64,000 nt of DNA from Rhynchopus sp. YZ270_cl-10 (Eukaryota), in assembly GCA_964035575.1 (NCBI GenBank), contig OZ037836.1:1550001-1614000 (forward strand), given 5' to 3'. Every line of letters begins with the position of its first letter. Positions within the stretch are counted from its first letter, which is position 1. Made by a program: the position numbers and the translations under genes. This document shows, one piece after another, positions 10,630 through 61,284 of the stretch. The notes under the pieces were generated by a model. It made no database searches. It saw nothing but the letters and a program-made list of their open reading frames with translations, and was not told the DNA's origin.

Positions 10630-10844
10630 ATGGACGTGCACTTCGAGGATTTCAGAGCGAATCAGCACACAGTCGAGGTGGGTGCAGATGACACAGTGGA
10701 GGGCTTGCGGCGGAAGGTGGCGTCTGCAATGGGGTTGCCTGAAGACAGCTTTTGCATGAATTTCGGAGGCGAAGCGATGGGAGAAGGAGCGGACATGACG
10801 CAGCTGAGTGCTGGTGACACAATCATCCTCACGAAGACGAAGAA
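10630..10844 (+). pseudogene. Ubl-LRR gene 1, 5' half (ubiquitin-like domain), interrupted by an insertion
   Basis: MDVHFEDFRANQHTVEVGADDTVEGLRRKVASAMGLP...GDTIIL nearly identical to intact paralogs; frame resumes after a TSD at 19408. Confidence 0.85.
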
Positions 10845-10918
10845 GGGGGCAATTAACGTCTGACCAACCGCCAAGTGGGGCCCCTGGACGCCGTGTTCGC
10901 ATGGTACTGAGTCAGCGT
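10845..10918 (+). ncRNA. Candidate HDV-like ribozyme at the 5' end of the insertion
   Basis: P1 GGGGGC/GCCCCT (G1-U), P2 CTGAC/GTCAG, P3 CC/GG with L3 GCCAAGT, P1.1 CC/GG, P4 GCCGTG-TTCG-CATGGT, J4/2 ACTGA; P2-P3 junction is non-canonical. Confidence 0.5.
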
Positions 10919-11484
10919 GGGCGGCCGCCTCTCCAATGATGGATTCGCTCGGGACCGGAGGAGGAACAAGCCGATGTGGGAACCCTGGTTATTAACACAA
11001 CATCACAGTCAATTTCGGGCAGATCACCAGCTTATGTAGGCTACGCAAACCCCTTCGAGGGGTTTCAAGGATCTGTTACCTGTGCGGTGACTGGGAGTGT
11101 GTTGATGCCGATGAGGGGATCCCAGGTACAAGAAGGAAGCGTTGCCGGTGTCTCTACTGGTGACGGAATATTGTTGCTGTTCCTGTGTTGTCGTTTGACC
11201 GCATGGGAACGTTTTGTTGCTTTGTTGGTGCGTACACTGTATGTGAAACAACTGTGGATCAGCAGGTACGTGCTCTTGTGTATTCAGTGTGGTGTGTTGT
11301 AGTTTTGTTCAGTTCAGTTCAGTTTTCATCTTTTTGCCGTAGTAGAATTCTTGTGTTATGTGTTTAACCTCAGGCTGTGTACACCGTAGTGAAACATCTG
11401 TGGATCTGCAGGTGCGTGCTCTGTCGTTAATTCAGTGTGGCATGTTGTAGTTTTTGGTCTGTTTTTACGTTTTTTTTTTTTTTT

Positions 11485-11730
11485 GGGAGATAGTCAGACT
11501 TACCCTACCCTATTTTGAAAAAGTTCAGACTTGCCCTAAAAATAAGTTCAGACTTGCCCGAAAATAAGTTCAGACTTGCCCTAAAAGTGTTTTTAGGGCA
11601 AGTCTGAACTTATTTTTAGGGCAAACACTTTTTTTAGGGCAAGTCTGAACTTTTTTAGGGCAAGTCTGAACTTTTTTAGGGCAAGTCTGAACTTATTTTT
11701 AGGGTAAGTCTGAACTTATTTTAGGGCAAC
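11485..11730. repeat. MULE left TIR built of about 20-23-bp AAGTTCAGACTTGCCCTAAAA units in both orientations
   Basis: Units read directly; orientation flips around AAAAGTGTTTT. Confidence 0.9.
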
Positions 11731-13883
11731 AAGTCAGGCCACTTTGGCTGGGGCACTCTTGGCGCCCCATGTGGTATGACTTGTTTTATTGCCCTAAAAT
11801 GCCTAACCGAGCCGGAGCCCAAAAATTGATGCCAGAAACCACCAGCCACCCGGAAAGGGTGAACAGGCAGTCCACGTTGGGCCAGAACCGGTTACAAAGG
11901 AAGCCGTGTTCTGGGGCAACGTGGGGCGCAAAGTTTTACAATTTTCATGCACGGGTGCTCCACAAATTACCAAGTATTCCTTCTTTGTTGAATTGAGAGA
12001 GAGTCAGTGTTTAGCTACCACGCGGGTTTGCTTAGAATCCTTCGAGGCCGGCACAATTTTATTTATGTGGTCGGTTAAGACATGCCTATTGAAGAACAAC
12101 GAGGTCATCGTTGAAAGGAGCGAACTCCCCTTCCCACAACATCTCTCACATTTCAACTCAGAATTCATACTTGGTTATTTGCTTTGTCCATACGCAATCA
12201 AATTGTCATGCTTTCAAGAGCATGCCTGGCCAAAATGCAACAACGTGGAAAAATTGTTGTTGTTCCAAAAGGCAACAAGACCACCCACAAGGGGTGTTGA
12301 ATTGTGCACTGTCCGGGGGAGCGCAAAGTTTTTTCCCTGTACACAGTGGACACATCTTTATCACTTTGTTCCCACGGGGACACATTTGGATACTGCACGC
12401 ATGCAGAAGTGCCAAACATGTCCGCACGTGGAGTGGAGTGTCCATCATGTTTTCCTGGTTTCCAAAAAGCAGTTTTCTTGCACTTACTATTTGCCCCGGT
12501 GTCTGGCAATAGAAGTGGCTAACATTGTAATGAGTAGCATATACATACCGTTGATCCAAATGAGTAAGGCGACCAACAAGTCCTCTGGACTTTTTTGTTG
12601 TGACGACAATCGCGGAGTAATCCCGGAGAATTACATCCTCGTATAAAAAGTTAAAGGTAGAGGTGGGGAAACTGTAGCTATAGAAATAGTTGTTGCAGTA
12701 GTGCAGACACCCGAGGGTGCACCACTATGCTTTTCTTTGGTTGCATCGACAATTTTACGTACATGATGTAGGAGCTGTACAATGTCGCCCAAAGGCTTTG
12801 TACTTACTGCAGGAATCGGTATTTTTTTTTTTTTTTGTTACTACTACGTCGTGTTCTATGAGGAGTCGCGTTTGGGTGCGGAAGTCTTTTTTCTGGTCTC
12901 TGTTCTGTACGGGTCTCGGATCGTGGTGCGGTACTGCGGTGCGGTACCTGAGAGTTTTTTAGAGTGATGATAAAGGTCAGAGGGTTTTCCCCTCCCATTT
13001 GTGTCATTATTTAATTTTGCTCGGAAAGTGGGGTGTCCTGGACACGAGGAAATTCAGTTGCATGGAAAAAAAGCTCCATACCGTAGGTTGCTGATTTTTC
13101 TGTGACGTCTGTTTCCGGTTTCCTTTTCGTACGTGTTTCGGTTCGCGATACCTGAGAGTTGAGAGTGTTGAAAAACGGAATGCGGGTTAATTAAAAACAG
13201 GGGGTCCGAGGGGCTGGTAGGGGGGGGGTGCGCAGGTCGCGGGATCATGGTGGGTGAAAAACAAGGGGGAGTGGGGTCACTTTTGTAATGATGTATGAAC
13301 TTTGCCCATGACACGCCTTTTTTGTTTTCCACATCAAACTGGACAAGATGAGGGGGGTATATTTACTATGCACATGAAAAGCGCTTGGTCCGAGCGAAGC
13401 GAGGGCCAGACGTCTTACAATCTGTACAGTGCCGTTAGTTCTAACGAGGCACAAAAGTGAACAAAACTAGAGATGGATTGTTGTCATACAGGTATTAGGT
13501 GCAGTGACAATTGGGGGGAAATGAGTATAAACACGGGAGAGGCAGGGGAGAAAACAGACTGTCCAGTCAGTGTGGTGTTACTTAGTGTTCCAGTTACTCA
13601 TAACAAGCGTCTTTTTAGTTCTTTTTTGAAAGGGAATTAACGCCAGTAGCGGTCACTCATAGGAACTCGTAGGGGAGGGGCTGGGAAGGGAATGAAATTC
13701 AGAAATTCCCAAACGCATCATCTTACTCACGGGTCCTTGCGTCACTCACAGCAATTCTGTGTGTGGGCTTGATGCAGTTCAGCGAATAGCTAAACAAAAC
13801 AGGTAATCTAAAGAAAAGGGGTGGGGGAAAAGAAAAGGGAAGAAGGGGAAAAAAACAAGTGTTAAAACGTCTAAAAAATCAAA

Positions 13884-16754
13884 TCAGATTTGAGTATTTG
13901 CTTTTGCGCGGATTCGCCTAGCAATTACCGCCATCTTGCCGTTTGGCGACACCTTTCTTTGCTTTGCTTCTTGCCGGAGAAGTGCAGCACTCAGGGAGAG
14001 AAGCGTATTCACCCTAAACGGCTGGTACTGCGGGGTGTACTCAGCAATGACGTCCTGAAGAGTGGCAAATGGACGCTCTTTTGCGTCTGTGTCCCAGACG
14101 ACGTATCCACGCACCCCGTCCACCTTCTTCGCAACAACCCAGTGGGTGTCGCTGAGGTCCAGTGGGGGGCCGAGCAGGACAATATCCTTCCCCTCACCAT
14201 CCTCGAAGCTCTCCTTGCCCCAGTGCCTCAGGAGAATTCCGCGACTCAAGCAGAGGTTACTCACAGTATTGTAGGTGAAGTAACCCCCCCCCTGCTGGTT
14301 CTCGCAGGTTTCGGCGGCATCAAAACTACTCATCACAGTTTGTAGCATAGACTGTGCATGCATTGCAACAGAATATGGCACCCTGGCTTCTTTGTGGAAG
14401 TCCAAGATCCAGTTCGTCGCAGCCCATCCGCACTCCCCTTCCACCCTGCCTTCTCCAGAAGCCACGTGAAGCGAGATGGGAACTCGCACATCATGTGCCA
14501 AAACCTCGACTGGCGCACCGCTCGAAACCTCCTGCACACGTTTCCCTGAGCCCCCCTTCATCCTCTTGCGCCTACTGCACTCCTGCACCCATTCGTCGGG
14601 TATTGGACGCTTGCACCTCACCTGCCCCCGGTACGTCGCAGCGTGACCCACCCCACCGCAGCGCGAACACTGCTTCTTCTTATCCCCGTTGCATTGTATG
14701 CGTGCCGGTCTACCGCGGGGGTTGGTGTCGCACATCATCGGAAGCAAGCCGGAAGCGTGGAGGTCAGTGAGGTCCTCCGGCATGGTCGTCGCTTCGGGTA
14801 CTGCGATGTAAATGCCCCTCAATGCTTCATCCTTCAGGAACGGCGCGACACAATTGAGGACGGAATCGTCCGAGGCACAAATGAGGTGGGAGCAGGGGAT
14901 GCCTTCCAAGGAGGGGCGACGGCACGTGCACGTGAGTTCGACGGTGTTGACAGTAAAGTGATCTCCGTTTGCAAGGACCTCAACAACGTTATCGTCTTGC
15001 GTCGGTGTGCGCACCAGCGTACGAGCTTTCTCCACAGAGTCCTGCACACGTCCCCTGAACACGGTGTTCACAATTTTGAACAGGCCGTTGGGAATGGGGA
15101 GGGAGGCCAGCTTCGCGGACCTCTCGGCGAACCACGTCATCGTCAGCCTCCTCCAGGTGACGTGCAGGGTGATGATGCCCTTACCCCTTGCGTCCAGCAA
15201 CGCAGCGTTCACACTCTCGCTTGCGTTCTGGGTGTATTCGTCGCAACGGTACCCCGACAAGTGGCAGTCAGCCCACTTATCCTTCACAGCTGTCAACGCT
15301 GTGCTCAGCCGCGAATGCGCACTGCTCTCCTCACGAATCGCACTTGCGAGCCCCTGCACCGTCTTCTCCTTCGCCAATCTGAACGTGGCGTTCAGCACCA
15401 CATCTCTCTTCCCGACAGACGACGCTCCCCCGGACATGTTCCCCGCCAGGTGCTTCACGCACGCCACACAGCAACAGTCCGGAAACGCAGCATCCAGCTC
15501 CGTTCCTAAGCCCTTCAGCCTGTCGGACAGGATCGTCTCCCCCCGCAGCTGGCCAAACGCACGGTTGAAGTGCGTGGCGAAGTACCCCCAGTTGGCGGTG
15601 TCCTCCATCGGGCACATCGTCACCGCCAAGGGGACGATGTTGCTGTTGGCGTCTTTCGCCACAGCAATGAGCAGCATGCCCACATAGTGCCCCGTCAAAT
15701 GACACCCATCTAGGAACACGATGGGGAGGCAGAGGCGGAACGCCCGGATAGCCTCGGGGAGAGCGACAAAGGAGCGGCGGAAGTGCTCCACTGGGGGGCT
15801 CCCTTCAGGTGCCCTGTTCTCCTTCTCGTAGCTGCTGTAGGTGCCGGGGTTTGCATCGCTCAGGCGCTTCAGGTAATCTGCGAATTTGCTGAACTCCTCG
15901 TCCATGCAGCCGTTCGCGACCTCCACGGCGCTACACCTCGCGCGCTGGACGGTGCTGCGGCTCACAGACACCCCCAGGTCCGACTTCAGTGACATCTTTG
16001 CATCGTTCGCAGACATGGCAGACAACATGCCGACGTTCTCCTGGGCGAGCACCTTGCTTGTCCCGTAGGAGGTGGCTCCGGCGGCACTGGAGGTGCAGGT
16101 GTGTACTCCCACCTTGTTCACCTTAACCCCGCCGGTCTTTGAGGGACCTGCGGTGGCTTTCCAGTTGCACGCCGGGTCAGTGCAGACCCACGTGCCGTAC
16201 CCCCCCTCACGCCTCGAGGTTTTTACACCCCACCCTCTCGCCAATCCATGCTTCGTGAGGAGGTCTTTAACCTCAGTGAGGTCGCGGTGCTCCGTTCCCG
16301 GGAGGTATGCCCTTAATAGGGGGCACGTGGTGTCTGCAGGTGCTGTTGGAGCTGTTGGAGTAGGTGCTGCTGTTGGTGATGATGTTGGTGATGCTGTAGG
16401 TGCTGCTGTAGGTGCTGCTGTAGGTGCTGCTGTTGATGATGATGTACGTGCTGCTGTACGTCCTGCTGTACGTCCTGCTGTACGTCCTGCTGTACGTGCT
16501 ACTGTAGGTGCTGCTGTTGATGATGCTGTAGGTGCTGCCGTATGTGGTATTGTCGATGATGGGACGTTGGGACTGTAGAAGGAGGCCTGAGAGGGAGGAT
16601 AAGACGGTACGGGCGCATGCATGAATCCGTGTCTGTATGACTGCCTCAGCCCCTCCAGACACTCGCTCTTCATCGAGTCATACTCAGGAGCAGAGAGTAT
16701 TCCAGCATCAAATAGCTCCTTGAGTTGCACCAAGTCTGACAAAGACGCGGGCAT
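13884..16754 (-). CDS. MULE transposase: SHOCT-like N-terminus, Zn DNA-binding domain, DDE core, SWIM, Zn knuckle, C-terminal Josephin-like domain
   Basis: IVFLDGCHL, ILSDRLKGL, CVKH, TQNASESVN (D-D-CxxH-E of MULE); CTC-x8-CSH (SWIM); CSRCGGVGH; likely start MPASLSD at 16754 (ORF track 16844). Confidence 0.9.
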   Translation of the reverse strand: MPASLSDLVQLKELFDAGILSAPEYDSMKSECLEGLRQSYRHGFMHAPVPSYPPSQASFYSPNVPSSTIPHTAAPTASSTAAPTVARTAGRTAGRTAGRTAARTSSSTAAPTAAPTAAPTASPTSSPTAAPTPTAPTAPADTTCPLLRAYLPGTEHRDLTEVKDLLTKHGLARGWGVKTSRREGGYGTWVCTDPACNWKATAGPSKTGGVKVNKVGVHTCTSSAAGATSYGTSKVLAQENVGMLSAMSANDAKMSLKSDLGVSVSRSTVQRARCSAVEVANGCMDEEFSKFADYLKRLSDANPGTYSSYEKENRAPEGSPPVEHFRRSFVALPEAIRAFRLCLPIVFLDGCHLTGHYVGMLLIAVAKDANSNIVPLAVTMCPMEDTANWGYFATHFNRAFGQLRGETILSDRLKGLGTELDAAFPDCCCVACVKHLAGNMSGGASSVGKRDVVLNATFRLAKEKTVQGLASAIREESSAHSRLSTALTAVKDKWADCHLSGYRCDEYTQNASESVNAALLDARGKGIITLHVTWRRLTMTWFAERSAKLASLPIPNGLFKIVNTVFRGRVQDSVEKARTLVRTPTQDDNVVEVLANGDHFTVNTVELTCTCRRPSLEGIPCSHLICASDDSVLNCVAPFLKDEALRGIYIAVPEATTMPEDLTDLHASGLLPMMCDTNPRGRPARIQCNGDKKKQCSRCGGVGHAATYRGQVRCKRPIPDEWVQECSRRKRMKGGSGKRVQEVSSGAPVEVLAHDVRVPISLHVASGEGRVEGECGWAATNWILDFHKEARVPYSVAMHAQSMLQTVMSSFDAAETCENQQGGGYFTYNTVSNLCLSRGILLRHWGKESFEDGEGKDIVLLGPPLDLSDTHWVVAKKVDGVRGYVVWDTDAKERPFATLQDVIAEYTPQYQPFRVNTLLSLSAALLRQEAKQRKVSPNGKMAVIARRIRAKANTQI

Positions 16755-16869
16755 TATTGTGTTGTTTTTAATGAATGCTGGAGATGGGGAGGGTAAGGAG
16801 GGTGAGTAGAGGATTAATCGTAAGCTTCTGTCTGCACACTTCATGGGTAACGTTGAGTCTCGCTCTCGT

Positions 16870-17041
16870 TGGTTTGGTTGTGTTATGATCGTTGTATCAA
16901 GTCTCGCTCTAGGCGGTCATGTATGTCAACATACGAAGAGATGGTTTGGTTGTGTTATGATCGTTGTATCAAGTCTCGCTCTAGGCGGTCATGTATGTCA
17001 ACATACGAAGAGATGGTTTGGTTGTGTTATGATCGTTGTAT
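16870..17041. repeat. 72-bp tandem repeat (about 2.4 copies) upstream of the transposase
   Basis: TGGTTTGGTTGTGTTATGATCGTTGTA at 16870, 16942, 17014. Confidence 0.9.
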
Positions 17042-17239
17042 TTTTAGAATCTGGCATCGCGTTCTACTGGGACGCAAGACTTCTGGACCCGAACCACCTG
17101 AAGGCGTCGAATCGTCCCGCAGAAGGAGATCATGAGGTGAAGAAAAAGTTGTCGTACAAGGTCGCTATTTTTGTTTTTGTTTTTGTTTTCGTTTTTGTTT
17201 TTGTTTTTGTTTTCGTTTCGCTTTTTTGAATAGAAGTCG

Positions 17240-17540
17240 AGTTAGTACAGAGGCTCTCCTTAGAAGGCAAAATTAGTCAATAATCCTGATTACCGACAAT
17301 AATCCGGATTATGTGACAAGGTGGATTACTTGTGTTTTGGTGGGAAAAAACCGCAAAAACGCATCTTAGACGCCCAGAAAGGCTCAAAACTGCCCAATTC
17401 TAGCTGGAATTGCAAAATTGGACACTTTTGGGGTGTGACCAAAAAAAAATTTGAGAGTCTAGTTATTACAGAGGCTCACCTTAGAAAATAGTCAATAATC
17501 CTGATTACCGACAATAATCCGGATTATGTGACAAGGTGGA
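17240..17540. repeat. Two direct repeats of about 85 bp containing palindrome ATAATCCGGATTAT
   Basis: TAGTCAATAATCCTGATTACCGACAATAATCCGGATTATGTGACAAGGTGGA occurs twice. Confidence 0.85.
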
Positions 17541-17749
17541 CTGTTGTGGCAAAACACTATTTAAAGTTAACGTGCGGAGGGTGAGGAGGAGGAGTGAGGA
17601 GGAAAAGTTGCATACCATACGTTGCTCATTTCACTACCAGGACTCGTCGTCGCGAATAGCCTATACGTGCCCTAAACAGAACGCAAAAACGACGACCGCC
17701 GGGCTCTGTGACCCAAGAGCCCCCAGCTTGCCCAATAAATAAGTGCAGG

Positions 17750-17965
17750 GTTGCCCTAAAAAAGTTCAGACTTGCCCTAAAAAAGTTCAGACTTGCCCTA
17801 AAAAAGTTCAGACTTGCCCTAAAAAAAGTGTTTGCCCTAAAAATAAGTTCAGACTTGCCCGAAATAAGTTCAGACTTGCCCTAAAAACACTTTTAGGGCA
17901 AGTCTGAACTTATTTCGGGCAAGTCTGAACTTTTTCAAAATAGGGTAGGGTAAATCTGACTATTT

Positions 17966-17968
<3 letters not shown>
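17750..17968. repeat. MULE right TIR
   Basis: Reverse complement of left TIR with unit-number differences. Confidence 0.9.
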
Positions 17969-18004
<36 letters not shown>

Positions 18005-18052
18005 GTTAGTAGAAGAAGGGATCTGCGAACATTCATTCGCAGGTGGGTACAA

Positions 18053-18695
18053 GTTGTCGCCGTGGCATTCAGCTACGGTGCAGAAGAGGCAGTAGGGCAG
18101 ACCAACGTCTGTGCTAGAAGGAAGAGGTTAAACTTTCAGGGTGTATGCACTGTACGTGAAACAACTGTGGATCTGCAGGTACATGCTCTGTTGTTTTTCC
18201 AATGTGTTTGTTTTTGTTCTATTTTCACGTGCTTTGGTACGTTGATAGATGAAGGAGTTGTCGCCGTGGCATTCAGCTACGGTGCAGAAGAGGCAGTAGG
18301 GCAGACCAACGTCTGTGCTAGAAGGAAGAGGTTAAACTTTCAGGGTGTATGCACTCTGCAGGTACATGCTCTGTTGTTTTCCAATGTGTTTGTTTTTGTT
18401 CCATTTTCACGTGCTTTGGTACGTTGAAGATGAAGGAGTTGTCGTCGTGGCGTCCAGCTACGGTGCAGAAGAGGCAGTAGGGCAGACCAACGTCTGTGCT
18501 AGAAGGAAGAGGTTAAACTTTCAGGGTGTATGCACTGTACGTGAAACAACTGTGGATCTGCAGGTACATGCTCTGTTGTTTTTCCAATGTGTTTGTTTTT
18601 GTTCTATTTTCACGTGCTTTGGTACGTTGATAGATGAAGGAGTTGTCGTCGTGGCGTCCAGCTACGGTGCAGATGAGGCAGTAGGGCAGACCAAC
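18053..18695. repeat. 204-bp tandem repeat (about 3.3 copies; second copy 181 bp)
   Basis: Units start at 18053, 18257, 18438, 18642; diverged relatives (GTGAAACAACTGTGGATC...GCAGGT) at about 11240 and 11390 on the other side of the MULE. Confidence 0.9.
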
Positions 18696-39735: not shown

Positions 39736-39743
39736 TCACGACC

Positions 39744-44510: not shown

Positions 44511-44521
44511 CGAAGGTGGTC

Positions 44522-44576
44522 ACGTGGCGCCTTTCTCACCTCTCAGTTCATCTGAGAAGGTGGGGATGGGTCACGT
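44522..44576 (+). other. 3'-UTR stem-loop of the retrotransposon (also 58062-58116)
   Basis: ACGTGGC/GTCACGT outer stem and CACCTCTCAG/CTGAGA(A)GGTG inner stem, followed by CAACAAGTTTAA(T) with no poly(A). Confidence 0.7.
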
Positions 44577-44589
44577 CAACAAGTTTAAT

Positions 44590-49459: not shown

Positions 49460-50370
49460 ATGGACGTGCACTTCGAGGATTTCAGAGCGAATCAGCACAC
49501 AGTCGAGGTGGGTGCAGATGACACAGTGGAGGGCTTGCGGCGGAAGGTGGCGTCTGCAATGGGGTTGCCTGAAGATGGCTTTTGCATGAGTTTCGGAGAC
49601 GAAGCGATGGGAGAAGGAGCGGACATGACGCAGCTGAGTGCTGGTGACACAATCATCCTCACGAAGACGAAGACGAAGAGGCAACAAGCCATTGCAGAGC
49701 TTCATGCGTTGGGTGTGACCGACATCACAGCCGAGAAGTTGTACAGTGTGAAGGATGCTGAGGTGGCGTGTTTGCTTCTGCAGGCGGAGGTTGCGACTGT
49801 CATTCCTGATGGGTTCTTGTCAAGCACTTCGTTGACGAGACTTGATCTCAGTGCTGTGCCCTTTGTGACACAGATTGGAGACAACTTCCTCCACAAGTGC
49901 ACCTCGTTGACAAGTATTGACCTCTCTGGGTTGAGCAATGTGACGGTGATTGGCGGTTACTTTCTTTCCGGCTGTAAATATTTAACCACCCTGGATCTGA
50001 CACCACTCAAGAACGTTACGCGGATTGAGGGATCTTTTCTTGAAGGTTGCGAAGCTTTAACCACCCTGGATCTGGCACCACTTAAGAACGTGACGGCGAT
50101 TGAAGGTAGCTTTCTTGATGGCTGTAAATGTTTAACCACCCTGGATCTGACACCGCTCAACAACGTTACGAAGATTGAGAGTTACTTTCTTCTCGACTGC
50201 AACTCTTTATCCAGCCTGGATCTGACACCACTCATCAACGTTACGAGGATAGAGAGTTTCTTTCTTGGTCGCTGCAACTCTTTAACCACCCTGGATCTGA
50301 CACCACTCGACAAGGTGACGGTGATTGGCAGTTACTTTCTTTGCGAGTGCAACTCTTTAACCACCCTGGA
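49460..50370 (+). pseudogene. Ubl-LRR gene 6, 5' part, interrupted by copy 2
   Basis: Ubl + LRRs, interrupted in the 8th repeat. Confidence 0.9.
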
Positions 50371-50500
50371 GGGATACACACAACGTACACAAAAAGAAAG
50401 AATATAAACAATGTTTTCGTACATGGTGTCGAAGTCACGTCCAGCCTCCACGCGGAGTATCCCGGGCAACGATCCGTCACACGGATCGGCCAAGTGGACG
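50371..50500 (+). ncRNA. HDV-like ribozyme (copy 2)
   Basis: Same sequence as 36831-36960. Confidence 0.85.
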
Positions 50501-53275
50501 CCACACCCGCCGGCGCCTGTGTGCTGCAGGTCGTGGAACTGCTATTGCAGTGACGAGGTGACGGCGGCGGCGGAGCAGGCGCACTGGACTGAGGGGCTAC
50601 GGCAGCCCGCCTACCCGGGGGCAGGCGGCATGAAGCGCAGTGCAGGGGAGGAGAGGAAGGATCCCGATGTCTTCATCGGAGTAGTGACGGGCGAGAAGGT
50701 GCGGGACACGACGGGGCTGTGTGCGCTGGCGCGTGATGCGACGGAGGAGGAACCAGGAACGCACTGGGAAGTAACCCGCCGCCTGGCAAACATCACCAAG
50801 GCAGAAGCCGCGTACGAGGGCATCCTGCTCGGGCTTCAAGGGGTGGCCGACGGGTCGTACCCGAAGGGCACCCACGCGCGCGTGTGGGTCACGCACTTGG
50901 TGGTCTGGAGGCAGGTGGCTGAGGGGCACGCCTGCGACTCGTCGTTGCTGAAGCCGAGGCTGGAGAAGGTGAAGGCGCTGCTGGGCGAGTTGAAGAAGAG
51001 GGGGATAAGGGTATCGCTGCAGCACTGCGCGAAGGCGGGGAAGGGGATGAAGGAGGCAGAGAGCAACGCCCAGCTGGTTGCAGGAGGGGTGTACGCCGCA
51101 AGGGGATGCAGGACGGAGACGCTGGCAGCTGCCGTGCAGCCAGGTGTCAAGGGACACCTGGAAAGATGGGGGTTGCGATGGGAGGAATGTGGGGGCAAGG
51201 GGGACTGTCTGTTCCGGTCGGTGGCGTGGTCTGTGGAGCGGTCCCCGAATGGTCACGCAGGCTTCCGCAGGCTCGCAGTTGAGGTGATGAAGGAGCAGAA
51301 GGCACACTACAGCCCATTTGTGGACGAGGGGTGCATTGATGCATACCTGGCAGGCATGGCGCAGCTGGGGACATGGGGGGACCATTTGTGTCTCCATGCG
51401 ATCGCCAAGGTGATGAAGGTCCGCATTGTTGTGCTTGACGTTGGACCGGAGAACGCGCTACGGGCTACGCTGATCGACGGGCAGTCCGACGGGCAGCTGG
51501 CAGAAGGAACTCCGGAGAAGGCTAACCTCACCTTCACGGAGTCTGACGTAGTCCTGGGGTTCGAGGGGGTACACTACGGTGCTGTGGAATCGGCAGGGTT
51601 GAAGGTGGGGGAGGAACTTCTGTGCGCAGTGGGACAACCGCAACTGCACGTACCGGCTACAGCTGTGAAGGGGAAGAAGAAGGCGACGGCGGTGACCCAG
51701 AGCGCAGCGGAGGATGCACTGAACCTGGCGCCCCAGGGATGGAAAATACCGGTGTGGGATGCAGTGCCCAGCAATGTGGAAGGGGTGACGCAGGTGGCGG
51801 CAGTTGCGTGGAAGGCGAGCGAACTTCTGCAGGGGTTACAGTTGCTGCACCAACTTCCGCAGATGGTGATTGTGTCCCGTTCGAAGTGTACGGGTGCAGC
51901 GCGCACGAAGAAGGCGAAGGTGGCGGTGAAGACGGAGCGGGGAGCAAAGGTGGAAGAAGTGTGGCTGTCGTCCATGACAACTAACTTGGACGACGTGGTG
52001 AAGCCGGTGGAGAGCACGTTCTCGAGCAAGCTGATTACGCTGATGGGCAGAACGATGTTGCTCCAGGGGGAGGGGCGCACAAAGGGAGAGCAACGCATGC
52101 GTCGGTGGTACGGGTTGCAGGGGGTGCGGTGTGGACGCGGCTTGGAGAGAGGAGGATGGATGGAGATGTCTGTGGACGTGACGGAGGACATGGTGTGCGC
52201 CATGCTGAGGAGAAGCGGACGGGAAGGGGTGTTTGTGCGGCACCTCTTCCAGGCAAAGGAGTACGGGGACTGTGGGTTGTTGTGGAAGGCGGAACCGCTG
52301 GAGTCTGCTCTGGCACGGCTGGACCTTGTTGAGGAGAACATGGAGGATAGCGTGCGCGGACTCGCCGTAGGGGAAGGGGGCTACGCGGTGCGGGTGATGA
52401 AGGGGGACTTGGAGGCTGCGAAGAGGCTTCTTGTGCAGGAGGACGTCGTCGTGCAGGGACACAGGTACGAGATTGGGGGAATTCCGGCGAACACGTCGGT
52501 CCAGCTGTTGTGTGAGGGGCTGGTGAGGGAGGCGAGCTGGACGGTGAAGGTGCTGTCGCGAGGGCACAAGTGGACGGTTACGTCGGATGTGCCGTGCCCG
52601 AGCACAGAAGGGGTGCTGGAGGTGGGTGGATTGGTGTTGACGGTGTGTGCGGTGAAGGAAGGGCGTCGTGTGCAGAAGGTGGGTGCGAATCCGTGGGGTT
52701 TCCCTCTGGCGCAGTTCCCAGTACCGAGGCAAGGAGCAGCAGAGAGCGGCGCTGGCACGTGGGCGGCTAAGGCGAGGGGATACGCACCACCTGCAGCTCG
52801 ACCCCACCCTGCAACAGGGGCACCGGCGGCTCCGGCACCTCCCGCAGCTTCATCAGCAGCGCAGGACGAGATAGAGATGATGAAGAAGGAGATGAAGGAA
52901 TTGCGGGAGATGATGAAGGGCGTCATGGAGCAGCAGAAGGAGATGTTGGAGGCACAGAAGCGGATGATGGGACAGCCGCAGCAGTCGGCACCAGTCGCGC
53001 AACCGCCGCAGCCTCTCGACATGGAACAGCTCAGAGCAGAATGTGCTGAGATGAAGGAGACGGTGCAGCAGTGCAAGGACCAGAACGTGCAGCTGGCAGC
53101 GGAGAGCAAGCGGCTCACGGAGGAGAACGAGGCGCTGAAGAAGGCAGCTCGCGAGGCCAAGGACAAGGCCAGGGATGCTCAAGATCGTGGCGGTGAGGAG
53201 AAGAAGAAAGATACGACGACGGACGAGAACAGCCGCCCCCGCGACACGGACAATAACCGAGAAAGGTCGTATTAA
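50411..53275 (+). CDS. Retrotransposon ORF1 (copy 2)
   Basis: 954 aa, same translation as copy 1. Confidence 0.8.
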   Translation: MFSYMVSKSRPASTRSIPGNDPSHGSAKWTPHPPAPVCCRSWNCYCSDEVTAAAEQAHWTEGLRQPAYPGAGGMKRSAGEERKDPDVFIGVVTGEKVRDTTGLCALARDATEEEPGTHWEVTRRLANITKAEAAYEGILLGLQGVADGSYPKGTHARVWVTHLVVWRQVAEGHACDSSLLKPRLEKVKALLGELKKRGIRVSLQHCAKAGKGMKEAESNAQLVAGGVYAARGCRTETLAAAVQPGVKGHLERWGLRWEECGGKGDCLFRSVAWSVERSPNGHAGFRRLAVEVMKEQKAHYSPFVDEGCIDAYLAGMAQLGTWGDHLCLHAIAKVMKVRIVVLDVGPENALRATLIDGQSDGQLAEGTPEKANLTFTESDVVLGFEGVHYGAVESAGLKVGEELLCAVGQPQLHVPATAVKGKKKATAVTQSAAEDALNLAPQGWKIPVWDAVPSNVEGVTQVAAVAWKASELLQGLQLLHQLPQMVIVSRSKCTGAARTKKAKVAVKTERGAKVEEVWLSSMTTNLDDVVKPVESTFSSKLITLMGRTMLLQGEGRTKGEQRMRRWYGLQGVRCGRGLERGGWMEMSVDVTEDMVCAMLRRSGREGVFVRHLFQAKEYGDCGLLWKAEPLESALARLDLVEENMEDSVRGLAVGEGGYAVRVMKGDLEAAKRLLVQEDVVVQGHRYEIGGIPANTSVQLLCEGLVREASWTVKVLSRGHKWTVTSDVPCPSTEGVLEVGGLVLTVCAVKEGRRVQKVGANPWGFPLAQFPVPRQGAAESGAGTWAAKARGYAPPAARPHPATGAPAAPAPPAASSAAQDEIEMMKKEMKELREMMKGVMEQQKEMLEAQKRMMGQPQQSAPVAQPPQPLDMEQLRAECAEMKETVQQCKDQNVQLAAESKRLTEENEALKKAAREAKDKARDAQDRGGEEKKKDTTTDENSRPRDTDNNRERSY

Positions 53276-53283
53276 TCACGACC

Positions 53284-56200
53284 GTGGGCCTTGCCCCACT
53301 AAAGATAGTGTGCAGCAATGTGACGGCGCTGCAGACAGGCGGGAGCTCTCTGCTGAAGGTTGCGGAGGATGCTCACGTTGTTCTGGTACAAGAGACAAAG
53401 TGCACCGTGACGACGCAGAAGCGCCTCTCCATCGAGTACCGCGAGCAGGGTTGGCAGGTGGTGTGGGGTAAGGAGTTGCCGGAATGGAGGTCGGCCGAAG
53501 AAGCGAAATCTGGTGGTGTTGCGATTCTGGTGCAAGAGGGAATACCTGTGCTCACGAGCCCGCCCTCCTCAACCTTGGAAAAGAACCTCTGGGACTCAAC
53601 GCGATGGGTGAAGGCGAAGGTGGCGTACGGCAAAGGCAACGAGTGGATCGACGTGACCTCCGTCTACGCGCCGTCGGCGGACCCGGAGGCTAGGGAGAAA
53701 ATACTTGGCGAGGTGATGGAGGCTGCTGCAGAGCTTGGTGATATTCCTGGGGTGATTGGTGGGGATTTCAACGCAGGTCCAGGGAAATCAGGTGTGCTGG
53801 CTGCTACACTGGACACAGGATGGTGGAAGGACACTGCCGAAGAGCACGCAAGGGTGCTTGGGACGACCCCGGACAACACCTACTTCTCGGTGAAAGACGG
53901 CAAGGAGATCCGCAAGAGGCTCGATTACGTTCTGCTGAACCGAGCTGCGTGCACAGGGCTGTCGTCTGTGAAGGTTGTCCACGACTCTGGGCTCCCGCAG
54001 CACAGACCGGTAGAGATAGCGCTGGATGTAGGTGCGTACAGGCAGATCGTGCTCGCGTACACTCTGCCGAAGCAGTTCCCTTTGGACAAGTGTGGACAAG
54101 GCGTGAAGAATGCACAAAAGGCGTTTGCGAGCAAGGAGCTGCAGTGGGGGGCGCTTCAACACCCTCAGGATAGGTGGATACAGTGGAACAAGTGGGCAGA
54201 GGACTTCTTGCTGCAGGCGTGCGAAGGCGAGATTGAGGGCCCGACGAAGGCGTATTGCGGAAGAGGCAAAACGTTTGACCCGAAGCCGAAGCACCGGACT
54301 GCGAAGCAGAGCAAGGAAGGGGACGCTCTGACAGTGAGCCAGAGAAGGCTGACGAAGAACGTGGGCAGGCTGGAAGAATGTCGGCTGTGGTACGTGAGGA
54401 GCAACGGTGGTGTGCCGCCACATGACGTGTGCAATTGTTGGAGCAAGGCGCGGAAGGAACTGCGTGTTCTGCTGGACGACGACTCACTGCAACAGGATAT
54501 GCCTAGCGAGGAGGCTTTGGTGGATCTGTGCAGAGCCGTGCGAGTGAAGGTGTCAACGCTTGCGGACCGAGTGAAGCGGAAGCGACTGGAGGACTGGCGG
54601 CAGCGCCTACGGGATGCATGGCACAATGCTCCCAAGGCGATCTTCAAATACTGCAAGGACGAACAGTACAGGAAGATGACTGCCCTGAAGAACGAGGATG
54701 GGAAGTTCACCGCCAACGCTGAGGAGATGGACACCCTCCTGCATGAGGCGTGGATGCCGATTCTTCGCCGATATGCGGAAAAGCCAGAGCCCGACTGGGG
54801 TGCGTTTAGGGAGAAGTTTACAGAAGACATCGCAGGCAAGGGGCAAGCGATGCAGATGGACAGGCTGACGGGGAAGGAGTTGCAGCAAACTCTGGGGAGG
54901 ATGAAGACACAAACTTCTGCTGGGGTGGAGGGTTGGCGCATGGTAGAGCTGAAGGCGCTTCCTCTGGTGCTGCTCGACAGGCTGGCAGATGTGTTTGATG
55001 CGATTGAGTGTACGGGGGAGTGGCCGCCTTCTTTGATGAGAGCACTCATTGCGCTCATCCCCAAAGGGGAAGACGACACCCCGCTGAAGCAGCGACCTAT
55101 CACGATCACTTCGTGTATCTACAGACTGTGGGCGGCAGCGAGGTTGCGAAGGCTGATAAAGTGGCAGGAAAGCTGGATTGGTGAGCAACAGCACGGCTTC
55201 AGAGCAGGACACAGCACTGCACACCTGTACTGGCATCTGTCGCTCAAGCTGGAGAAGGCGGTACTGTCGGGTGACGACACAGACCAGGTATGGGGCTTCA
55301 CGATCGACTACGCCAAATGTTTCGATCGTGTACCTCATGAGATTGTGCTATCGCTGGCGGAGGAGTGGGGCGCGCACTGGCGTATTCTTGGACCACTGAG
55401 GGCTGCGTACACTGCCATGGAACGCCGCTTCAAGTTGGGAGACGTAGGTGTGGGAGGCACCTTTCGTACGACAAATGGTATCCTGCAAGGATGCCCACTT
55501 TCTGTCGTGCTGTTGAACGCGCTGATGGCGGTGTGGGGATCTGCAGTGACGAGAAGGACCGGAGCAATCGCCATGGGGTACGCTGACGACGTGTATGCTG
55601 TGGCGAACACGGAAGCGGAGGTGCATGGTGCTGCGAGGGTGACGAAGGAGTTTATCACTGCTGCGGACATGGAGGTCAAGGCAGAGAAGTGCGTAGGGTT
55701 TACCTCGAAGGAGGGAACAAAGACGAAGTTTGGACTTGGCGACGGGCTCTTCCCCGACAAGAAGCAGTTCGGGGCGGTTGGAGCAGACATTTTGGCTGGA
55801 AAGGGGAACTTCGGGCCCATCGCGCGTGAGCGTGCGGTTACTGCGCACCGTGTGTTTACGAGGGTTTCGAGTGTGCCTTTATCCTTCACTGAGAAGGCAC
55901 TTATTGGCGCAAGGGGACCAATGATGGCAGCGTTGCATGGGTGCGAAGTGACAGACTTCTCAAAGCAGACCATAGAGACGCTGAGGCAAGGGGCAGCACT
56001 GGCAGTCTGGGGGCAGGGCAGGAAGCAGCGCACGCTGAACATTGTGTGGCATGTGTTATCTCCGGTTGGGATTGATGCGCCAGCGGAGATTGTGCAGAGG
56101 AGGATGGCGGCCTTTCTCCGACTGACAGAAGATGACGGCATGCGGAGAGAAGCAGAAGACGTGTGGAGGCTGGCACATGACCGAAGAGCGGAGCGGGAGG

Positions 56201-58050
56201 TGAGGCGGCGTGACAGGGCTTCAGATCTGGCACGTCTCCGGCGCGAGAACCCTGGGGTTGCCAACCCAAGGGTTACTGAAGTGCACAAGAAGGGTGTGAT
56301 AGAGTTGTTGTGGGACGACCTGGAGCGATACGGATGGCGGTGGAGCAGCTTCGACTTCTGGACCACACACATCGGGTTGAGGGTGCACGTTCGTCTGTGG
56401 GACAAGGGCAAATGGCTGCATGAGCTGAGAGAGGGCATCCGTGCACACGCGTACCGCCTGACAGTGACGACGAGGCCGTCGATGCAGGGCATTGAGGGAG
56501 GTGTGGATCGCCAGGCGACGAACGCAGTGTGGAAGGACCGCACGACCGACAGATACCTGGCGGGCGCGATACGCGGAGCCTTGTCGGGCTCTCAGTTGGT
56601 GGGGGTGCAGCTGCTGAGGAACAAGGAGGTGGAGACTTCGTTGTGCCGATACTGTGGTGAGGCGATAGAGGACCGGAGACACGCTTGGTGGTGGTGCCCG
56701 CAGTGGGACGAAATTCGTGGAGAGGACATCGGAAAACTCCGGGTTTTGCTCAAAGACGCACCCCCGTGCTTCTTGGACTTTGGCCTGGTGCCGACGATAT
56801 TCTTGCAGGAGCTGAGTGTTGCGGAGAGAGAGCAGACGGTGCGTCGTGTGCAACTGATGCTGGTCAGCATCGCGCTGGCAAGGCAGAAGTACGACGTGGA
56901 ACATGGGTTTTCGCAGAAGAAGAAGAAGCAAGCGGTGGTGGGCCAATCCCTTTTTCCTTGGGGCTGGAATCCTCAGGAGGGTGCAGTGCTTGAGAGCTAC
57001 AACCCGCTGGAGAACGTACTGTGGGGGAGCAAGTACATGAAGAAGAGTCCACGCTGGACGGAAGACCACTTCTGGGCGCTGAAGGCATGGCTCGCTGCAT
57101 TGCGTTGGCCTGATGGCACAACGCCCCCCATCACGCAGCTCGAGCTCATGCTGGACTTTGAGATCTTCTCGGGGTTGGACGTACCGGGTGAGACGGTGTT
57201 GAAGAGGGCCGAATCTTTTGGTGCCATGATGCGGACGGCGAAAACGATGGCGCGTGGAAGGGACGTATGGAAAGGAGTGGAGAAGAGGGAGGTGCACCAC
57301 TTACAGGAACTGGGTGCGGGGATCATGACGGGGTATTCTGTGCGACCTGTGCTGACGCATGCGGCGGGGGTTGAAGGATACCTGAAGGAGTTGCAGGAGA
57401 AGGCGACGTCGCGGAGAGCACTCTCCCGACAAAAGGAAAAGACGAAGGCGAGGTGGGGTGACGACGCGGATGTGGCTCATACTTCCACTCCGGAAGAACG
57501 CTCAGCAAAGAACGAACGCTGGAAGGAAGCGAAGGAAGAGCAGAAGCAGGCAGAGGAGGTGCGTAGTAGAGCTGCGATAGCTGCAGTTGCGGCAGAGCAG
57601 ATTCGACGACAGGAGGCACGCAGGCGGCAGACACCGGCTGTGCGTGTGGACGTAAGGAGGAAGGTGGGGGCCATGCGGGTGTGTGACATACACACCAAGA
57701 TGCGATGCGGGGACTGCGAGCACAACAACATCTCCATCACGGCGTGTTGTGCGACGCACCATTGTGATGAGCTTATTTTGGGTGACTGTGTGGAGGCGCG
57801 TGAGGCGTGTGAGGTGCATAACTTCTCGATGTGCGGACAGTGTGCGGGTGCGGGGAACGTGTCGATGAAGCAGTGCTGTCAGAAGCACCACAACTGTGTG
57901 GCCCACGGGAGGGGTGCTTGCGGTGCATGTGTGCAGGCGGGACGGAAGAGGAAGAAGGACGGATTGCCGATGCTGGCGTCTCCTCAGGCCTGTTGCGGGA
58001 AAGGGCACCACGACACGTCCCAGGGGCGTCTCGGGTTTGCCCCGCGATAA
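53284..58050 (+). CDS. Retrotransposon ORF2 APE-RT (copy 2)
   Basis: 1588 aa; visible difference from copy 1: KTMARG vs KTMAHG. Confidence 0.95.
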   Translation: MGLAPLKIVCSNVTALQTGGSSLLKVAEDAHVVLVQETKCTVTTQKRLSIEYREQGWQVVWGKELPEWRSAEEAKSGGVAILVQEGIPVLTSPPSSTLEKNLWDSTRWVKAKVAYGKGNEWIDVTSVYAPSADPEAREKILGEVMEAAAELGDIPGVIGGDFNAGPGKSGVLAATLDTGWWKDTAEEHARVLGTTPDNTYFSVKDGKEIRKRLDYVLLNRAACTGLSSVKVVHDSGLPQHRPVEIALDVGAYRQIVLAYTLPKQFPLDKCGQGVKNAQKAFASKELQWGALQHPQDRWIQWNKWAEDFLLQACEGEIEGPTKAYCGRGKTFDPKPKHRTAKQSKEGDALTVSQRRLTKNVGRLEECRLWYVRSNGGVPPHDVCNCWSKARKELRVLLDDDSLQQDMPSEEALVDLCRAVRVKVSTLADRVKRKRLEDWRQRLRDAWHNAPKAIFKYCKDEQYRKMTALKNEDGKFTANAEEMDTLLHEAWMPILRRYAEKPEPDWGAFREKFTEDIAGKGQAMQMDRLTGKELQQTLGRMKTQTSAGVEGWRMVELKALPLVLLDRLADVFDAIECTGEWPPSLMRALIALIPKGEDDTPLKQRPITITSCIYRLWAAARLRRLIKWQESWIGEQQHGFRAGHSTAHLYWHLSLKLEKAVLSGDDTDQVWGFTIDYAKCFDRVPHEIVLSLAEEWGAHWRILGPLRAAYTAMERRFKLGDVGVGGTFRTTNGILQGCPLSVVLLNALMAVWGSAVTRRTGAIAMGYADDVYAVANTEAEVHGAARVTKEFITAADMEVKAEKCVGFTSKEGTKTKFGLGDGLFPDKKQFGAVGADILAGKGNFGPIARERAVTAHRVFTRVSSVPLSFTEKALIGARGPMMAALHGCEVTDFSKQTIETLRQGAALAVWGQGRKQRTLNIVWHVLSPVGIDAPAEIVQRRMAAFLRLTEDDGMRREAEDVWRLAHDRRAEREVRRRDRASDLARLRRENPGVANPRVTEVHKKGVIELLWDDLERYGWRWSSFDFWTTHIGLRVHVRLWDKGKWLHELREGIRAHAYRLTVTTRPSMQGIEGGVDRQATNAVWKDRTTDRYLAGAIRGALSGSQLVGVQLLRNKEVETSLCRYCGEAIEDRRHAWWWCPQWDEIRGEDIGKLRVLLKDAPPCFLDFGLVPTIFLQELSVAEREQTVRRVQLMLVSIALARQKYDVEHGFSQKKKKQAVVGQSLFPWGWNPQEGAVLESYNPLENVLWGSKYMKKSPRWTEDHFWALKAWLAALRWPDGTTPPITQLELMLDFEIFSGLDVPGETVLKRAESFGAMMRTAKTMARGRDVWKGVEKREVHHLQELGAGIMTGYSVRPVLTHAAGVEGYLKELQEKATSRRALSRQKEKTKARWGDDADVAHTSTPEERSAKNERWKEAKEEQKQAEEVRSRAAIAAVAAEQIRRQEARRRQTPAVRVDVRRKVGAMRVCDIHTKMRCGDCEHNNISITACCATHHCDELILGDCVEAREACEVHNFSMCGQCAGAGNVSMKQCCQKHHNCVAHGRGACGACVQAGRKRKKDGLPMLASPQACCGKGHHDTSQGRLGFAPR

Positions 58051-58128
58051 CGAAGGTGGTCACGTGGCGCCTTTCTCACCTCTCAGTTCATCTGAGAAGG
58101 TGGGGATGGGTCACGTCAACAAGTTTAA

Positions 58129-58371
58129 CTCTTTAACCACCCTGGATCTGACATCACTCAACAACGTTACGCAGCTTGAGGGGTATTTTCTTTCCCTCTG
58201 CGAAGCTTTAAGCAACCTGGCTCTGACACCGCTCAGCAACGTTGCGAGTATTGAGACTTGCTTTCTTAACGGCTGTAAATCTTTAACCACCCTGGATCTG
58301 ACACCACTCAACAACGTGACGGTGATTGCGAGTAGCTTTCTTTCCGGCTGCAACTCGTTTACCACCCTGGA
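58129..58371 (+). pseudogene. Ubl-LRR gene 6, three LRRs stranded between copies 2 and 3
   Basis: 243 bp = 18-bp TSD + 3 x 75 bp. Confidence 0.9.
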
Positions 58372-61276: not shown

Positions 61277-61284
61277 TCACGACC

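What the first reader, a model, noticed from the sequence alone, without database searches (positions are those of the whole stretch)
10630..58371. Tandem family of Ubl-LRR-NLS genes with variable repeat number and hypervariable positions
Seen: six paralogs with a nearly invariant Ubl domain and, where present, tail (RPKRSRDESPEQSQKRRRHAQ), but 5, 7, 6, about 25, about 17 and at least 11 LRRs. Within the 25-aa unit the framework is constant while positions in (I/V)xxxFLxxCx vary (GECFLQN, DKYFLNG, NDNFLVG, EHYFLRG). No signal peptide or TM segment. Inference: nuclear, diversifying recognition proteins that could deliver targets to the proteasome through the Ubl, resembling an intracellular immune repertoire or Crinkler/RHS-type Ubl-headed effectors.
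Basis: partly seen in the sequence, partly recalled or inferred. Interest (0 to 1): 0.7.

Follow-up and report, generated by a model that had tools for sequence, protein, structure and literature searches.

The report
Retrotransposon targets a leucine-rich repeat unit
In what is likely a diplonemid flagellate, a large family of fast-varying ubiquitin-like/leucine-rich-repeat genes (likely recognition proteins) is broken again and again at the same point of its 75-base repeat unit by one young retrotransposon, which likely uses that coding sequence as its landing site.

Summary
The six Ubl-LRR genes are real and the repeat counts hold, but only three are intact. The family has hundreds of members (722 hits), a ubiquitin fold plus a TpLRR/BspA solenoid, and non-synonymous excess at seven unit positions (pN/pS about 1.8). 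Delivery to the proteasome is poorly supported: the Ile44 position is never hydrophobic (119 of 119). Three near-identical 7.76-kb APE-RT non-LTR retrotransposons and a 2.4-kb element sit at the same base of the 75-bp LRR unit. Both complete retrotransposon copies carry their own 18-bp target-site duplication. Eight further family proteins break at the same codon into the same element, giving at least 11 insertions. One has an empty twin identical up to the junction. The three intact genes use other codons and lack the target. The host is likely a diplonemid. The closest precedent is the trypanosome RHS hot spot. Whether the element inserts only here, and whether the genes are expressed, is untested. 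New variant of a known kind.

The parts
10630..10845 (+). g1 5' half: Ubl domain; left 19-bp TSD at 10827-10845
10846..19407 (.). 8.56-kb insertion E1 in g1 (about 2.1 kb without a long ORF plus a nested MULE), flanked by an 18-19-bp TSD, no GT-AG ends
11485..17968 (-). MULE DNA transposon with terminal inverted repeats in a poly-T tract; transposase frame 13887-16916
19408..20056 (+). g1 3' half: right TSD, helical linker, 5 LRR, basic tail
24782..25765 (+). g2, intact, 327 aa, Ubl-linker-7 LRR-tail
28103..29017 (+). g3, intact, 304 aa, 6 LRR; the modelled protein
30760..33093 (+). g4, intact, 777 aa, 25 LRR with recent internal block duplications
36070..36830 (+). g5 5' part: Ubl and 5 LRR; left TSD 36813-36830
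36831..44589 (+). Retrotransposon copy 1 (7759 bp): 40-nt leader; ORF1 36871-39735 (OTU, coiled coil); ORF2 frame 39717-44510 (APE endonuclease, RT, CCHC, Cys-rich tail); 79-nt hairpin 3' end, no poly(A)
44590..45362 (+). g5 middle part: right TSD 44590-44607, about 10 LRR, frameshifted near 45300; left TSD of E2 at 45345-45362
45363..47749 (.). 2.4-kb non-coding element E2 at the same base of an LRR unit; 18-bp TSD with one mismatch; nested inverted repeats
47750..47849 (+). g5 last LRR and cap remnant with an early stop; a detached tail/3' remnant lies at 48459-48642
49460..50370 (+). g6 5' part: Ubl and 7 LRR; left TSD 50353-50370
50371..58128 (+). Retrotransposon copy 2 (7758 bp; 2 internal differences from copy 1)
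58129..58371 (+). g6 middle part: right TSD 58129-58146 and 3 LRR units between copies 2 and 3
58372..64000 (+). Retrotransposon copy 3 (runs off the window; 0 differences from copies 1 and 2 over 5629 bp)

Best explanation
This is an expanded family of Ubl-TpLRR genes, likely nuclear or cytosolic recognition proteins under diversifying selection, and one constant stretch of its LRR unit is hit repeatedly at the same base by a young APE-type non-LTR retrotransposon that likely recognises it as a sequence-specific target. Shown: the architecture, the predicted folds, the variable positions, the shared insertion point in different units, genes and contigs, the copy-specific 18-bp TSDs, the filled and empty twins, and the absence of the target from the three intact genes. 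Inferred: the element's endonuclease nicks the bottom strand about 18 bases upstream of the TTAACCACCCTGGA|TCT junction, and target-primed reverse transcription inserts a full-length copy in the gene's own orientation. There it can be carried in the polycistronic transcript, and each copy costs the host only one of hundreds of redundant genes. The 2.4-kb element probably uses the same enzymes. The host proteins probably bind foreign or host partners through the variable GxxFLxxC surface, with the Ubl acting as an adaptor or header rather than a Rad23-type proteasome handle.
For: Junctions: 3 of 3 retrotransposon copies in the window begin after ACCACCCTGGA in three different LRR units. The elements differ at 0-2 sites, while the flanks differ from 12-15 bases upstream onward. 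TSD base 4 is G on both sides of copy 1 and T on both sides of copy 2, and the two 3' junctions differ by one base. Among the 120 proteins listed, which were not chosen for the junction, 3 run into the element's 5' end (P0075, P0096, and P0109 one base earlier), all at the same codon. Six such events within +/-1 base of a 75-base unit have a chance of about 1e-7. The directed search gave 9 hits of 10 candidates, and all 9 end TL/NL-EGYTQRTQKERI, at LRR index 3 to 11, on six contig lengths. P0123 (filled) and P0263 (empty) are identical for 225 aa up to the junction. Four of 18 window units within 2 mismatches of the target are hit, against 0 of 48 others (one unit was mis-framed, the corrected table is 4 of 19 against 0 of 47). 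Eleven of the 15 listed ORF2 cluster members lie on contig lengths that also carry family genes. EN, RT and OTU catalytic motifs are present. In run X6 the contig holding the element's 5' end starts 5 bases into the LRR flank (a hint only). Family: 722 hits; pLDDT 90; ubiquitin fold; TpLRR Z 15.1, rmsd 3.1, 170 aligned; pN at variable positions over pS overall 1.82 (1.43-2.37), framework pN/pS 0.43.
Against: Exclusivity is not shown. At least 11 distinct insertions stand against 33 ORF2 cluster members, 15 of which were listed, some fragments. Four of those 15 lie on contig lengths absent from the 120 listed family proteins. A 362-bp, 95%-identical inner fragment lies inverted at 48863-49224, outside any target. 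The directed search favours LRR-flanked, in-frame, sense junctions and cannot see insertions in non-coding DNA. The residues just upstream of the junction vary (NS, KA, QS, EA, KS, RA, ES, CS), so recognition is loose on that side. The target motif was defined from the hit sites, so the 4-versus-0 table is partly circular. Independence by TSD rests on one informative base in two copies. The family also collects other insertions: E1, and E2 5' ends joined to linker positions of other paralogs (weak joints, 28-29 letters on the short side). It may therefore be a general sink. For the family, the variable class was chosen by entropy, which inflates pN; spanning-tree edges are not independent; and pS is also raised at those codons (1.33 to 1.87 times the framework). 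No expression, localisation or binding data.
Confidence: 0.7

Rival explanations
1. A hot spot without exclusive targeting, as in trypanosome RHS/ingi: the element has a modest sequence preference and inserts across the genome; the LRR unit happens to contain a good site thousands of times, and insertions there are tolerated.
For: Only 11 or more insertions are placed, against 33 ORF2 cluster members; four listed members lie on contig lengths without a listed family gene; the upstream side is loose; other elements also accumulate in the family.
Against: 11 of 15 listed ORF2 members lie on family-bearing contig lengths; 3 of 3 full copies in the window are at the site; the X6 contig starts 5 bases into the LRR flank (weak).
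Confidence: 0.2
2. One ancestral insertion was spread between paralogs and units by unequal crossing-over or gene conversion, as proposed for RHS pseudogenes.
For: The repeats clearly recombine (block duplications in g4); the elements are nearly identical; crossing-over is cited for RHS pseudogenes (PMC7563717, passages).
Against: Copy-specific TSD alleles match on both sides, one of them 4 bases from the element's end; the 3' junctions differ; P0109 has a -1 junction; flanks differ within 12-15 bases; P0123 and P0263 are filled and empty twins; a different element occupies the same base.
Confidence: 0.06
3. The family is a largely neutral, self-amplifying repeat family: the variable positions are merely unconstrained surface sites, and there is no recognition or defence role.
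For: Three of six genes in the window are broken; the variable class was chosen after the fact and pS is raised there too.
Against: Framework pN/pS is 0.43 and pN/pS within the variable codons is 1.46 (1.14-1.99). Ubl and tail are conserved, and 87 of 120 listed proteins keep a bipartite basic tail. The same 25-aa LRR type is used by a Holosporales protein and in a Flectonema transcript.
Confidence: 0.12
4. One reading: Rad23/Dsk2-like shuttles that bring LRR-bound targets to the proteasome through the Ubl.
For: Ubiquitin fold; the Rad23 and Dsk2 UBLs are among the structural matches (Z 10.5-11.3), though tied with many other Ubls.
Against: The Ile44-equivalent residue is Ser, Gly, Asn or Arg in 119 of 119 proteins scored, and the Val70 equivalent is mostly Thr where the register could be read. 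That this patch binds the proteasome receptors is recalled knowledge. This rival concerns only the Ubl's job and is compatible with the insertion finding.
Confidence: 0.15

Closest known systems
Trypanosome RHS (retrotransposon hot spot) genes with ingi/RIME insertions
   Same: Euglenozoan, multicopy protein-coding family with nuclear products; an autonomous LINE and a non-autonomous partner insert at one site and break many members; several retroelements can lie in one gene (PMC7563717 and PMC6393297, passages).
   Different: Here the site lies inside a coding tandem repeat and recurs many times per gene. The host protein is Ubl-TpLRR, not an ATP/GTP-binding RHS protein. The element has two frames with an OTU domain and 18-bp TSDs (12 bp for ingi, recalled). 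Its relation to ingi was not tested, as no ingi sequence was fetched.
Target-specific APE-type non-LTR retrotransposons (R1 and Tx1 clades)
   Same: APE endonuclease plus RT, a fixed insertion site in a multicopy sequence, slight variation at the 5' (top-strand) junction.
   Different: [quoted passage not shown] This RT groups with diplonemid and unnamed elements, far from the four animal rows in the quick tree; no named R1 or Tx1 row was in that tree.
TpLRR/BspA-like LRR proteins (PF13306; 6MLX, PcpA)
   Same: Fold (Z 15.1 to 6MLX), two strands per turn, IGxxF-xxC motif.
   Different: The unit has 25 aa rather than 23; there is an N-terminal Ubl and a basic tail, with no signal peptide or TM segment; the solved relatives are bacterial, several named cell-surface proteins.
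FNIP/FGxxFN LRR repertoires of CroV and Dictyostelium
   Same: [quoted passage not shown]
   Different: Different repeat class (22 aa); no Ubl or retrotransposon targeting in the passages seen.
Crinkler/RHS-type (CR) proteins with Ubl headers
   Same: N-terminal Ubl header, no signal peptide, nuclear, expanded (PMC5289972, passages).
   Different: No NTPase, HTH, REase or kinase C-terminus; an LRR solenoid instead; no LXLFLAK motif in the sequences shown.

Membership tests
Ubiquitin-like (beta-grasp) domain | ubiquitin fold and profile match | tested here: met
   PF00240 above cut-off in g1, g3 and g4, just below in g2; rmsd 1.4 A
Rad23/Dsk2-type proteasome shuttle UBL | hydrophobic Leu8-Ile44-Val70 patch (recalled) | tested here: not met
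   position 44 is S/G/N/R in 119 of 119 proteins scored
Rad23/Dsk2-type proteasome shuttle UBL | UBA or other ubiquitin-binding domain; proteasome binding | tested here: inconclusive
   no UBA in the Pfam scan; binding not tested
TpLRR/BspA-like LRR | PF13306 match and TpLRR fold | tested here: met
   E 2e-20 for g3 and 3e-73 for g4; top five structural matches are TpLRR-type proteins
Crinkler/RHS-type (CR) proteins | C-terminal NTPase/REase/kinase effector domains | tested here: not met
   only Ubl and LRR matched credibly in g2-g4; the model has no further domain
APE-type non-LTR retrotransposon | APE endonuclease followed by RT, TSD, no LTRs | tested here: met
   PF03372 and PF00078; catalytic motifs; 18-bp TSDs; no terminal direct repeat in the self-BLAST rows of 150 bp or more
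Target-specific non-LTR retrotransposon | independent copies at one nucleotide of a multicopy target | tested here: met
   at least 11 insertions at one codon
Target-specific non-LTR retrotransposon | most or all copies in the genome at that target | tested here: inconclusive
   no genome held; 11 or more placed against 33 ORF2 cluster members
Target-specific non-LTR retrotransposon | endonuclease cleaves the target specifically | not testable with these tools
   needs a biochemical assay
R1, Tx1 or ingi clade | RT phylogeny with named clade members | tested here: inconclusive
   quick tree of 27 of 31 chosen rows: sister to the Rhynchopus euleeides cluster (SH-aLRT 100) within a group rich in D. 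papillatum rows; no named R1, Tx1 or ingi rows were available
ingi/L1Tc clade | 5' HDV-like ribozyme signature | tested here: inconclusive
   no Rfam match at gathering score in the window; the first 100 nt fold no better than shuffles
Spliceosomal intron | GT-AG ends that restore the frame | tested here: not met
   no register of TSD plus element gives GT..AG for copies 1 and 2, E1 or E2 (read)

The most novel reading that the evidence does not exclude
A separate, diplonemid origin of sequence-specific APE retrotransposition whose safe harbour is the constant framework of a protein-coding repeat inside a diversifying, immune-like Ubl-LRR repertoire. The element prunes and reshapes the repertoire: it truncates receptors at unit boundaries, and its 3' end offers a pyrimidine tract, an AG and an in-frame ATG to the downstream LRR half. 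Meanwhile host subfamilies escape through synonymous recoding of the target (AGC/ACG in g1-g4 against TCT/ACC in g5-g6).
Probability: 0.3. Interest if true: 0.85.

Novelty: new variant of a known kind. Interest (0 to 1): 0.66.

Why it matters
The targets listed for sequence-specific non-LTR retrotransposons in the two papers read are RNA genes, telomeric repeats, microsatellites and other transposons. The one protein-coding hot spot met in these searches, RHS, lies in the sister group of diplonemids. An intact, recently active element that lands on one base of a coding LRR unit gives a direct system to ask how APE endonucleases gain specificity, whether hosts escape by synonymous recoding, and whether transposon pressure drives gene-family expansion, as suggested for RHS. 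It is also a candidate new-specificity integrase for genome engineering. The host family is a candidate intracellular recognition repertoire in an abundant marine protist group that carries bacterial endosymbionts.

Tried and rejected
No whole genome is held, so copies could not be counted directly. No RNA holder was listed; this says nothing about expression. Laying four runs of contigs on g5 showed no joint for the empty site among the 15 rows printed (108 more were hidden); contigs cannot show absence. Contig depths inside the element were roughly 13 to 35 times those of single-locus contigs in X4 (1802-2823 against 80-143), a rough figure only. The flanks of further copies could not be read from DNA. 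The Atlas gave only hits under 0.9 (DUF285 and Ubl-DUF285 clusters), leads only; its RT search did not complete. An RNase H-like look of the ORF1 N-terminus (recalled) got no Pfam match and no alignment to the RNase H of P0175, so it is not claimed. Rfam gave no match. The insertions as introns were rejected for lack of GT-AG ends; non-canonical diplonemid introns are short and typical of Hemistasiidae (PMC12621601, passages). The first Fisher table used miscounted cells and was redone. The careful RT tree did not finish; the quick tree was used, with 4 of 31 rows dropped. Bringaud 2002 (PMC118050) is not held and is known only through citing passages. No complex prediction was run. Earlier findings: none returned. 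Paper searches listed no paper on this family or on an LRR-targeting retrotransposon. Subscription journals, Repbase and the supplements of PMC10161547 (repeat section, not read) could hold such a description.
Full report
Observation. Six-frame translation and start mapping show six + strand paralogs: a 70-aa Ubl, a helical linker of about 50 aa, 25-aa LRRs, a cap and a basic tail. All six share the same 50-base upstream leader ending in CACACAGAGATCAG...ATG, which looks like a trans-splice acceptor (inference). Only g2 (327 aa), g3 (304 aa) and g4 (777 aa) are intact. g1 is split after the Ubl by an 8.56-kb insertion with an 18-19-bp TSD and a nested MULE. g5 and g6 are each split twice inside the LRR array.

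Host. No genome is held. The RT of the inserted element has its closest relative in a cluster that contains Rhynchopus euleeides transcripts (54% identity) and many Diplonema papillatum relatives at 35-43%. The quick tree makes it sister to the Rhynchopus cluster. The host is therefore likely a diplonemid; the species was not sought.

The family. g3 finds 722 proteins at E 0.001 or better. The 120 listed are 44-100% identical, single-contig records (118 ENA, 2 the window's own) on 25 contig lengths; most or all probably come from this organism (inference). AlphaFold2 on a 52-row alignment gives pLDDT 90. Residues 1-71 match ubiquitin (rmsd about 1.4 A), and residues 88-284 match TpLRR proteins best (6MLX Z 15.1, then 4H09, PcpA, 4FS7, 4GT6). 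Over 618 units from 129 proteins the core (L1, L6, V12, F19, L20, C23) is nearly fixed, while positions 14, 17, 18, 21, 22 and 24 carry 2.9-3.7 bits. In the model the strands fall at unit positions 3-5 and 14-15, so the variable residues follow the second strand. That resembles the GxxF edge described for FNIP repeats (PMC9525666, passages), not the LxxLxL strand. On a spanning tree of 56 unique window units, pN at seven variable codons is 0.264, against pS of 0.146 overall and 0.18 at those codons. The ratios are 1.82 (1.43-2.37) and 1.46 (1.14-1.99), and the framework gives 0.43. The class was chosen by variability and the edges are not independent, so this supports diversifying selection only moderately. 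A bipartite-NLS-like tail is present in 87 of 120 proteins. The residue aligned to Ile44 is Ser in g3 and S/G/N/R in all 119 proteins scored, which weakens proteasome delivery. The same 25-aa LRR type occurs outside the family, in a Holosporales protein and a Flectonema transcript (2 of the 10 looked up had a taxon), and in unnamed proteins with an N-terminal KYLKYK motif that I recall from giant viruses.

The insertions. Three copies of a 7.76-kb element begin at 36831, 50371 and 58372. Copies 1 and 2 differ at 2 internal sites, and copy 3 at none over 5629 bp. ORF1 has an OTU domain with its Cys and His. ORF2 has an APE endonuclease, RT and a CCHC motif, overlaps the end of ORF1 and has no early ATG. 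The 79-nt 3' end folds into a strong hairpin (z -5.2), and there is no poly(A). Each copy starts after ...ACCACCCTGGA, inside the Asp codon of LTTLD, in a different LRR unit. The flanks differ within 12-15 bases, and the 18-bp duplications are CTCGTTAACCACCCTGGA on both sides of copy 1 and CTCTTTAACCACCCTGGA on both sides of copy 2. An unrelated 2.4-kb element, E2, occupies the same base of another g5 unit with an 18-bp TSD. Its 3' end (CAAGTATAAG) resembles the retrotransposon's (CAAGTTTAA), which suggests trans-mobilisation (weak).

Beyond the window. Among the 120 proteins, three run into the element's 5' end: P0075 and P0096 at the same base, and P0109 one base earlier. With the three window copies, the chance of six such events within +/-1 base of a 75-base unit is about 1e-7. 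A search with the last 40 residues of truncated g6 returned 9 hits of 10 candidates, all with the same junction, at LRR index 3 to 11. I set aside P0121 (window copy 2) and P0122 (3 differences from window copy 1, possibly the same insertion in another haplotype or a duplicate). That leaves eight other insertions (P0075, P0096, P0109, P0123-P0127), so at least 11 in all. P0263 is an intact gene identical to P0123 for the 225 residues before the junction. All four window insertions fall in units within 2 mismatches of the target; every unit of g1-g4 has 4 or more mismatches, largely from AGC/ACG/CTC codons for the same residues.

Against strict targeting. The ORF2 cluster has 33 members, some of them fragments; of the 15 listed, 11 lie on contig lengths that carry listed family genes and 4 do not. 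A 362-bp inverted fragment at 48863-49224 lies off target. The protein route sees only sense insertions in coding DNA. The residues upstream of the junction vary. E1, and weak joints placing E2 in the linker of other paralogs, show that the family collects other insertions too.

Mechanism. Most likely (0.7) the endonuclease recognises the constant TTAACCACCCTGGA|TCT stretch, nicks the two strands 18 bases apart and primes reverse transcription. The copy lands in the sense direction in a family so large that each loss is cheap. The shared site, the TSDs and the twins are shown; nicking, specificity and exclusivity are inferred. The host proteins are most likely intracellular binders with a diversifying surface and a Ubl adaptor; their partners, location and expression are untested.

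Comparison. The nearest system is trypanosome RHS, a nuclear multigene family with one insertion site for ingi and RIME that breaks over half its members (PMC7563717 and PMC6393297, passages). Target-specific APE elements are described for the R1 and Tx1 clades, with RNA-gene, telomere, microsatellite and transposon targets (PMC4640811 and PMC5035012, passages). The D. papillatum genome paper names LINE-1-, SLACS-, R2- and jockey-like ORFs, says that a rigorous transposon survey is still due, and has no occurrence of 'LRR' or 'ubiquitin' in its main text (PMC10161547, passages; supplements not read). CR proteins share only the Ubl header (PMC5289972, passages). PMC12278014 and bioRxiv 10.1101/2024.10.30.620910 were seen as passages and added little; all other papers were seen as search listings only. 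Nine searches listed nothing on this family or on a retrotransposon aimed at an LRR unit.

Verdict. The family is a real lineage-specific expansion of a known kind, with moderate evidence of diversifying selection. The repeated, base-precise insertion of a young retrotransposon into its coding repeat is the unusual part. New variant of a known kind; interest 0.66.

Noticed in passing
window 58070-58135 (3' end of copy 2): The element's 3' end has a pyrimidine tract and AG followed by an ATG that is in frame with the downstream LRR half when the junction has no extra base (MGHVNKF-NSLTTL). In copy 1 one extra T shifts it out of frame. The tract is also one arm of the 3' hairpin.
   Followed up: partly
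window 39717-39735: ORF1 and ORF2 overlap by about 19 bases and ORF2 has no ATG before the endonuclease motifs, so a frameshift or non-AUG start is needed. In D. papillatum P0175, OTU, endonuclease, RT and RNase H form one frame.
   Followed up: no
P0378, P0392: Family relatives with an N-terminal B-box region ahead of the Ubl-LRR (B-box scored in P0378; P0392 similar by eye), a TRIM-like layout; P0378 also has a hydrophobic C-terminus.
   Followed up: partly
P0066, P0070, P0113, P0116, P0289, P0296, P0381: Some members end in cysteine-rich, CaaX-like tails (CCSVS, TCSCS) instead of the basic tail, suggesting swapped localisation signals.
   Followed up: no
window 21829-23733 and 26089-27003: FHA-domain gene with a weak Tpt1/KptA-like C-terminus lying within the array; its 3' 0.9 kb is duplicated (96.9%) between g2 and g3.
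   Followed up: no
window 1229-5665: WD40 propeller, long PT(V/L)AP repeat stalk and a multi-pass membrane region: a surface-protein-like gene.
   Followed up: no
window 8631-8859, 21171-21432, 24288-24589, 27606-27907, 30041-30343, 35161-35434: A 200-300-bp block, 93-98% identical, recurs upstream of g1-g5 and before the FHA gene; it is part of the duplicated unit.
   Followed up: no
window 48863-49224: Inverted 362-bp fragment of the retrotransposon's ORF2, 95% identical, outside the target site.
   Followed up: partly
window 45363-45763 and 46586-47407: Parts of E2 have very high summed contig depth in all four runs laid, so they are probably high-copy repeats; inverted repeats at 46535-46565 and 47500-47530 bound a nested piece of about 1 kb.
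   Followed up: partly
window 11485-17968: MULE with an open 1010-codon frame and terminal inverted repeats built of 21-22-bp tandem units, inserted in a poly-T run inside E1.
   Followed up: partly
P0270, P0278, P0279, P0297, P0280, P0282: The same 25-aa LRR type occurs in 760-1300-aa proteins with a KYLKYK-type N-terminus (recalled as giant-virus-like) and in Holosporales-type proteins with signal-like N-termini.
   Followed up: partly
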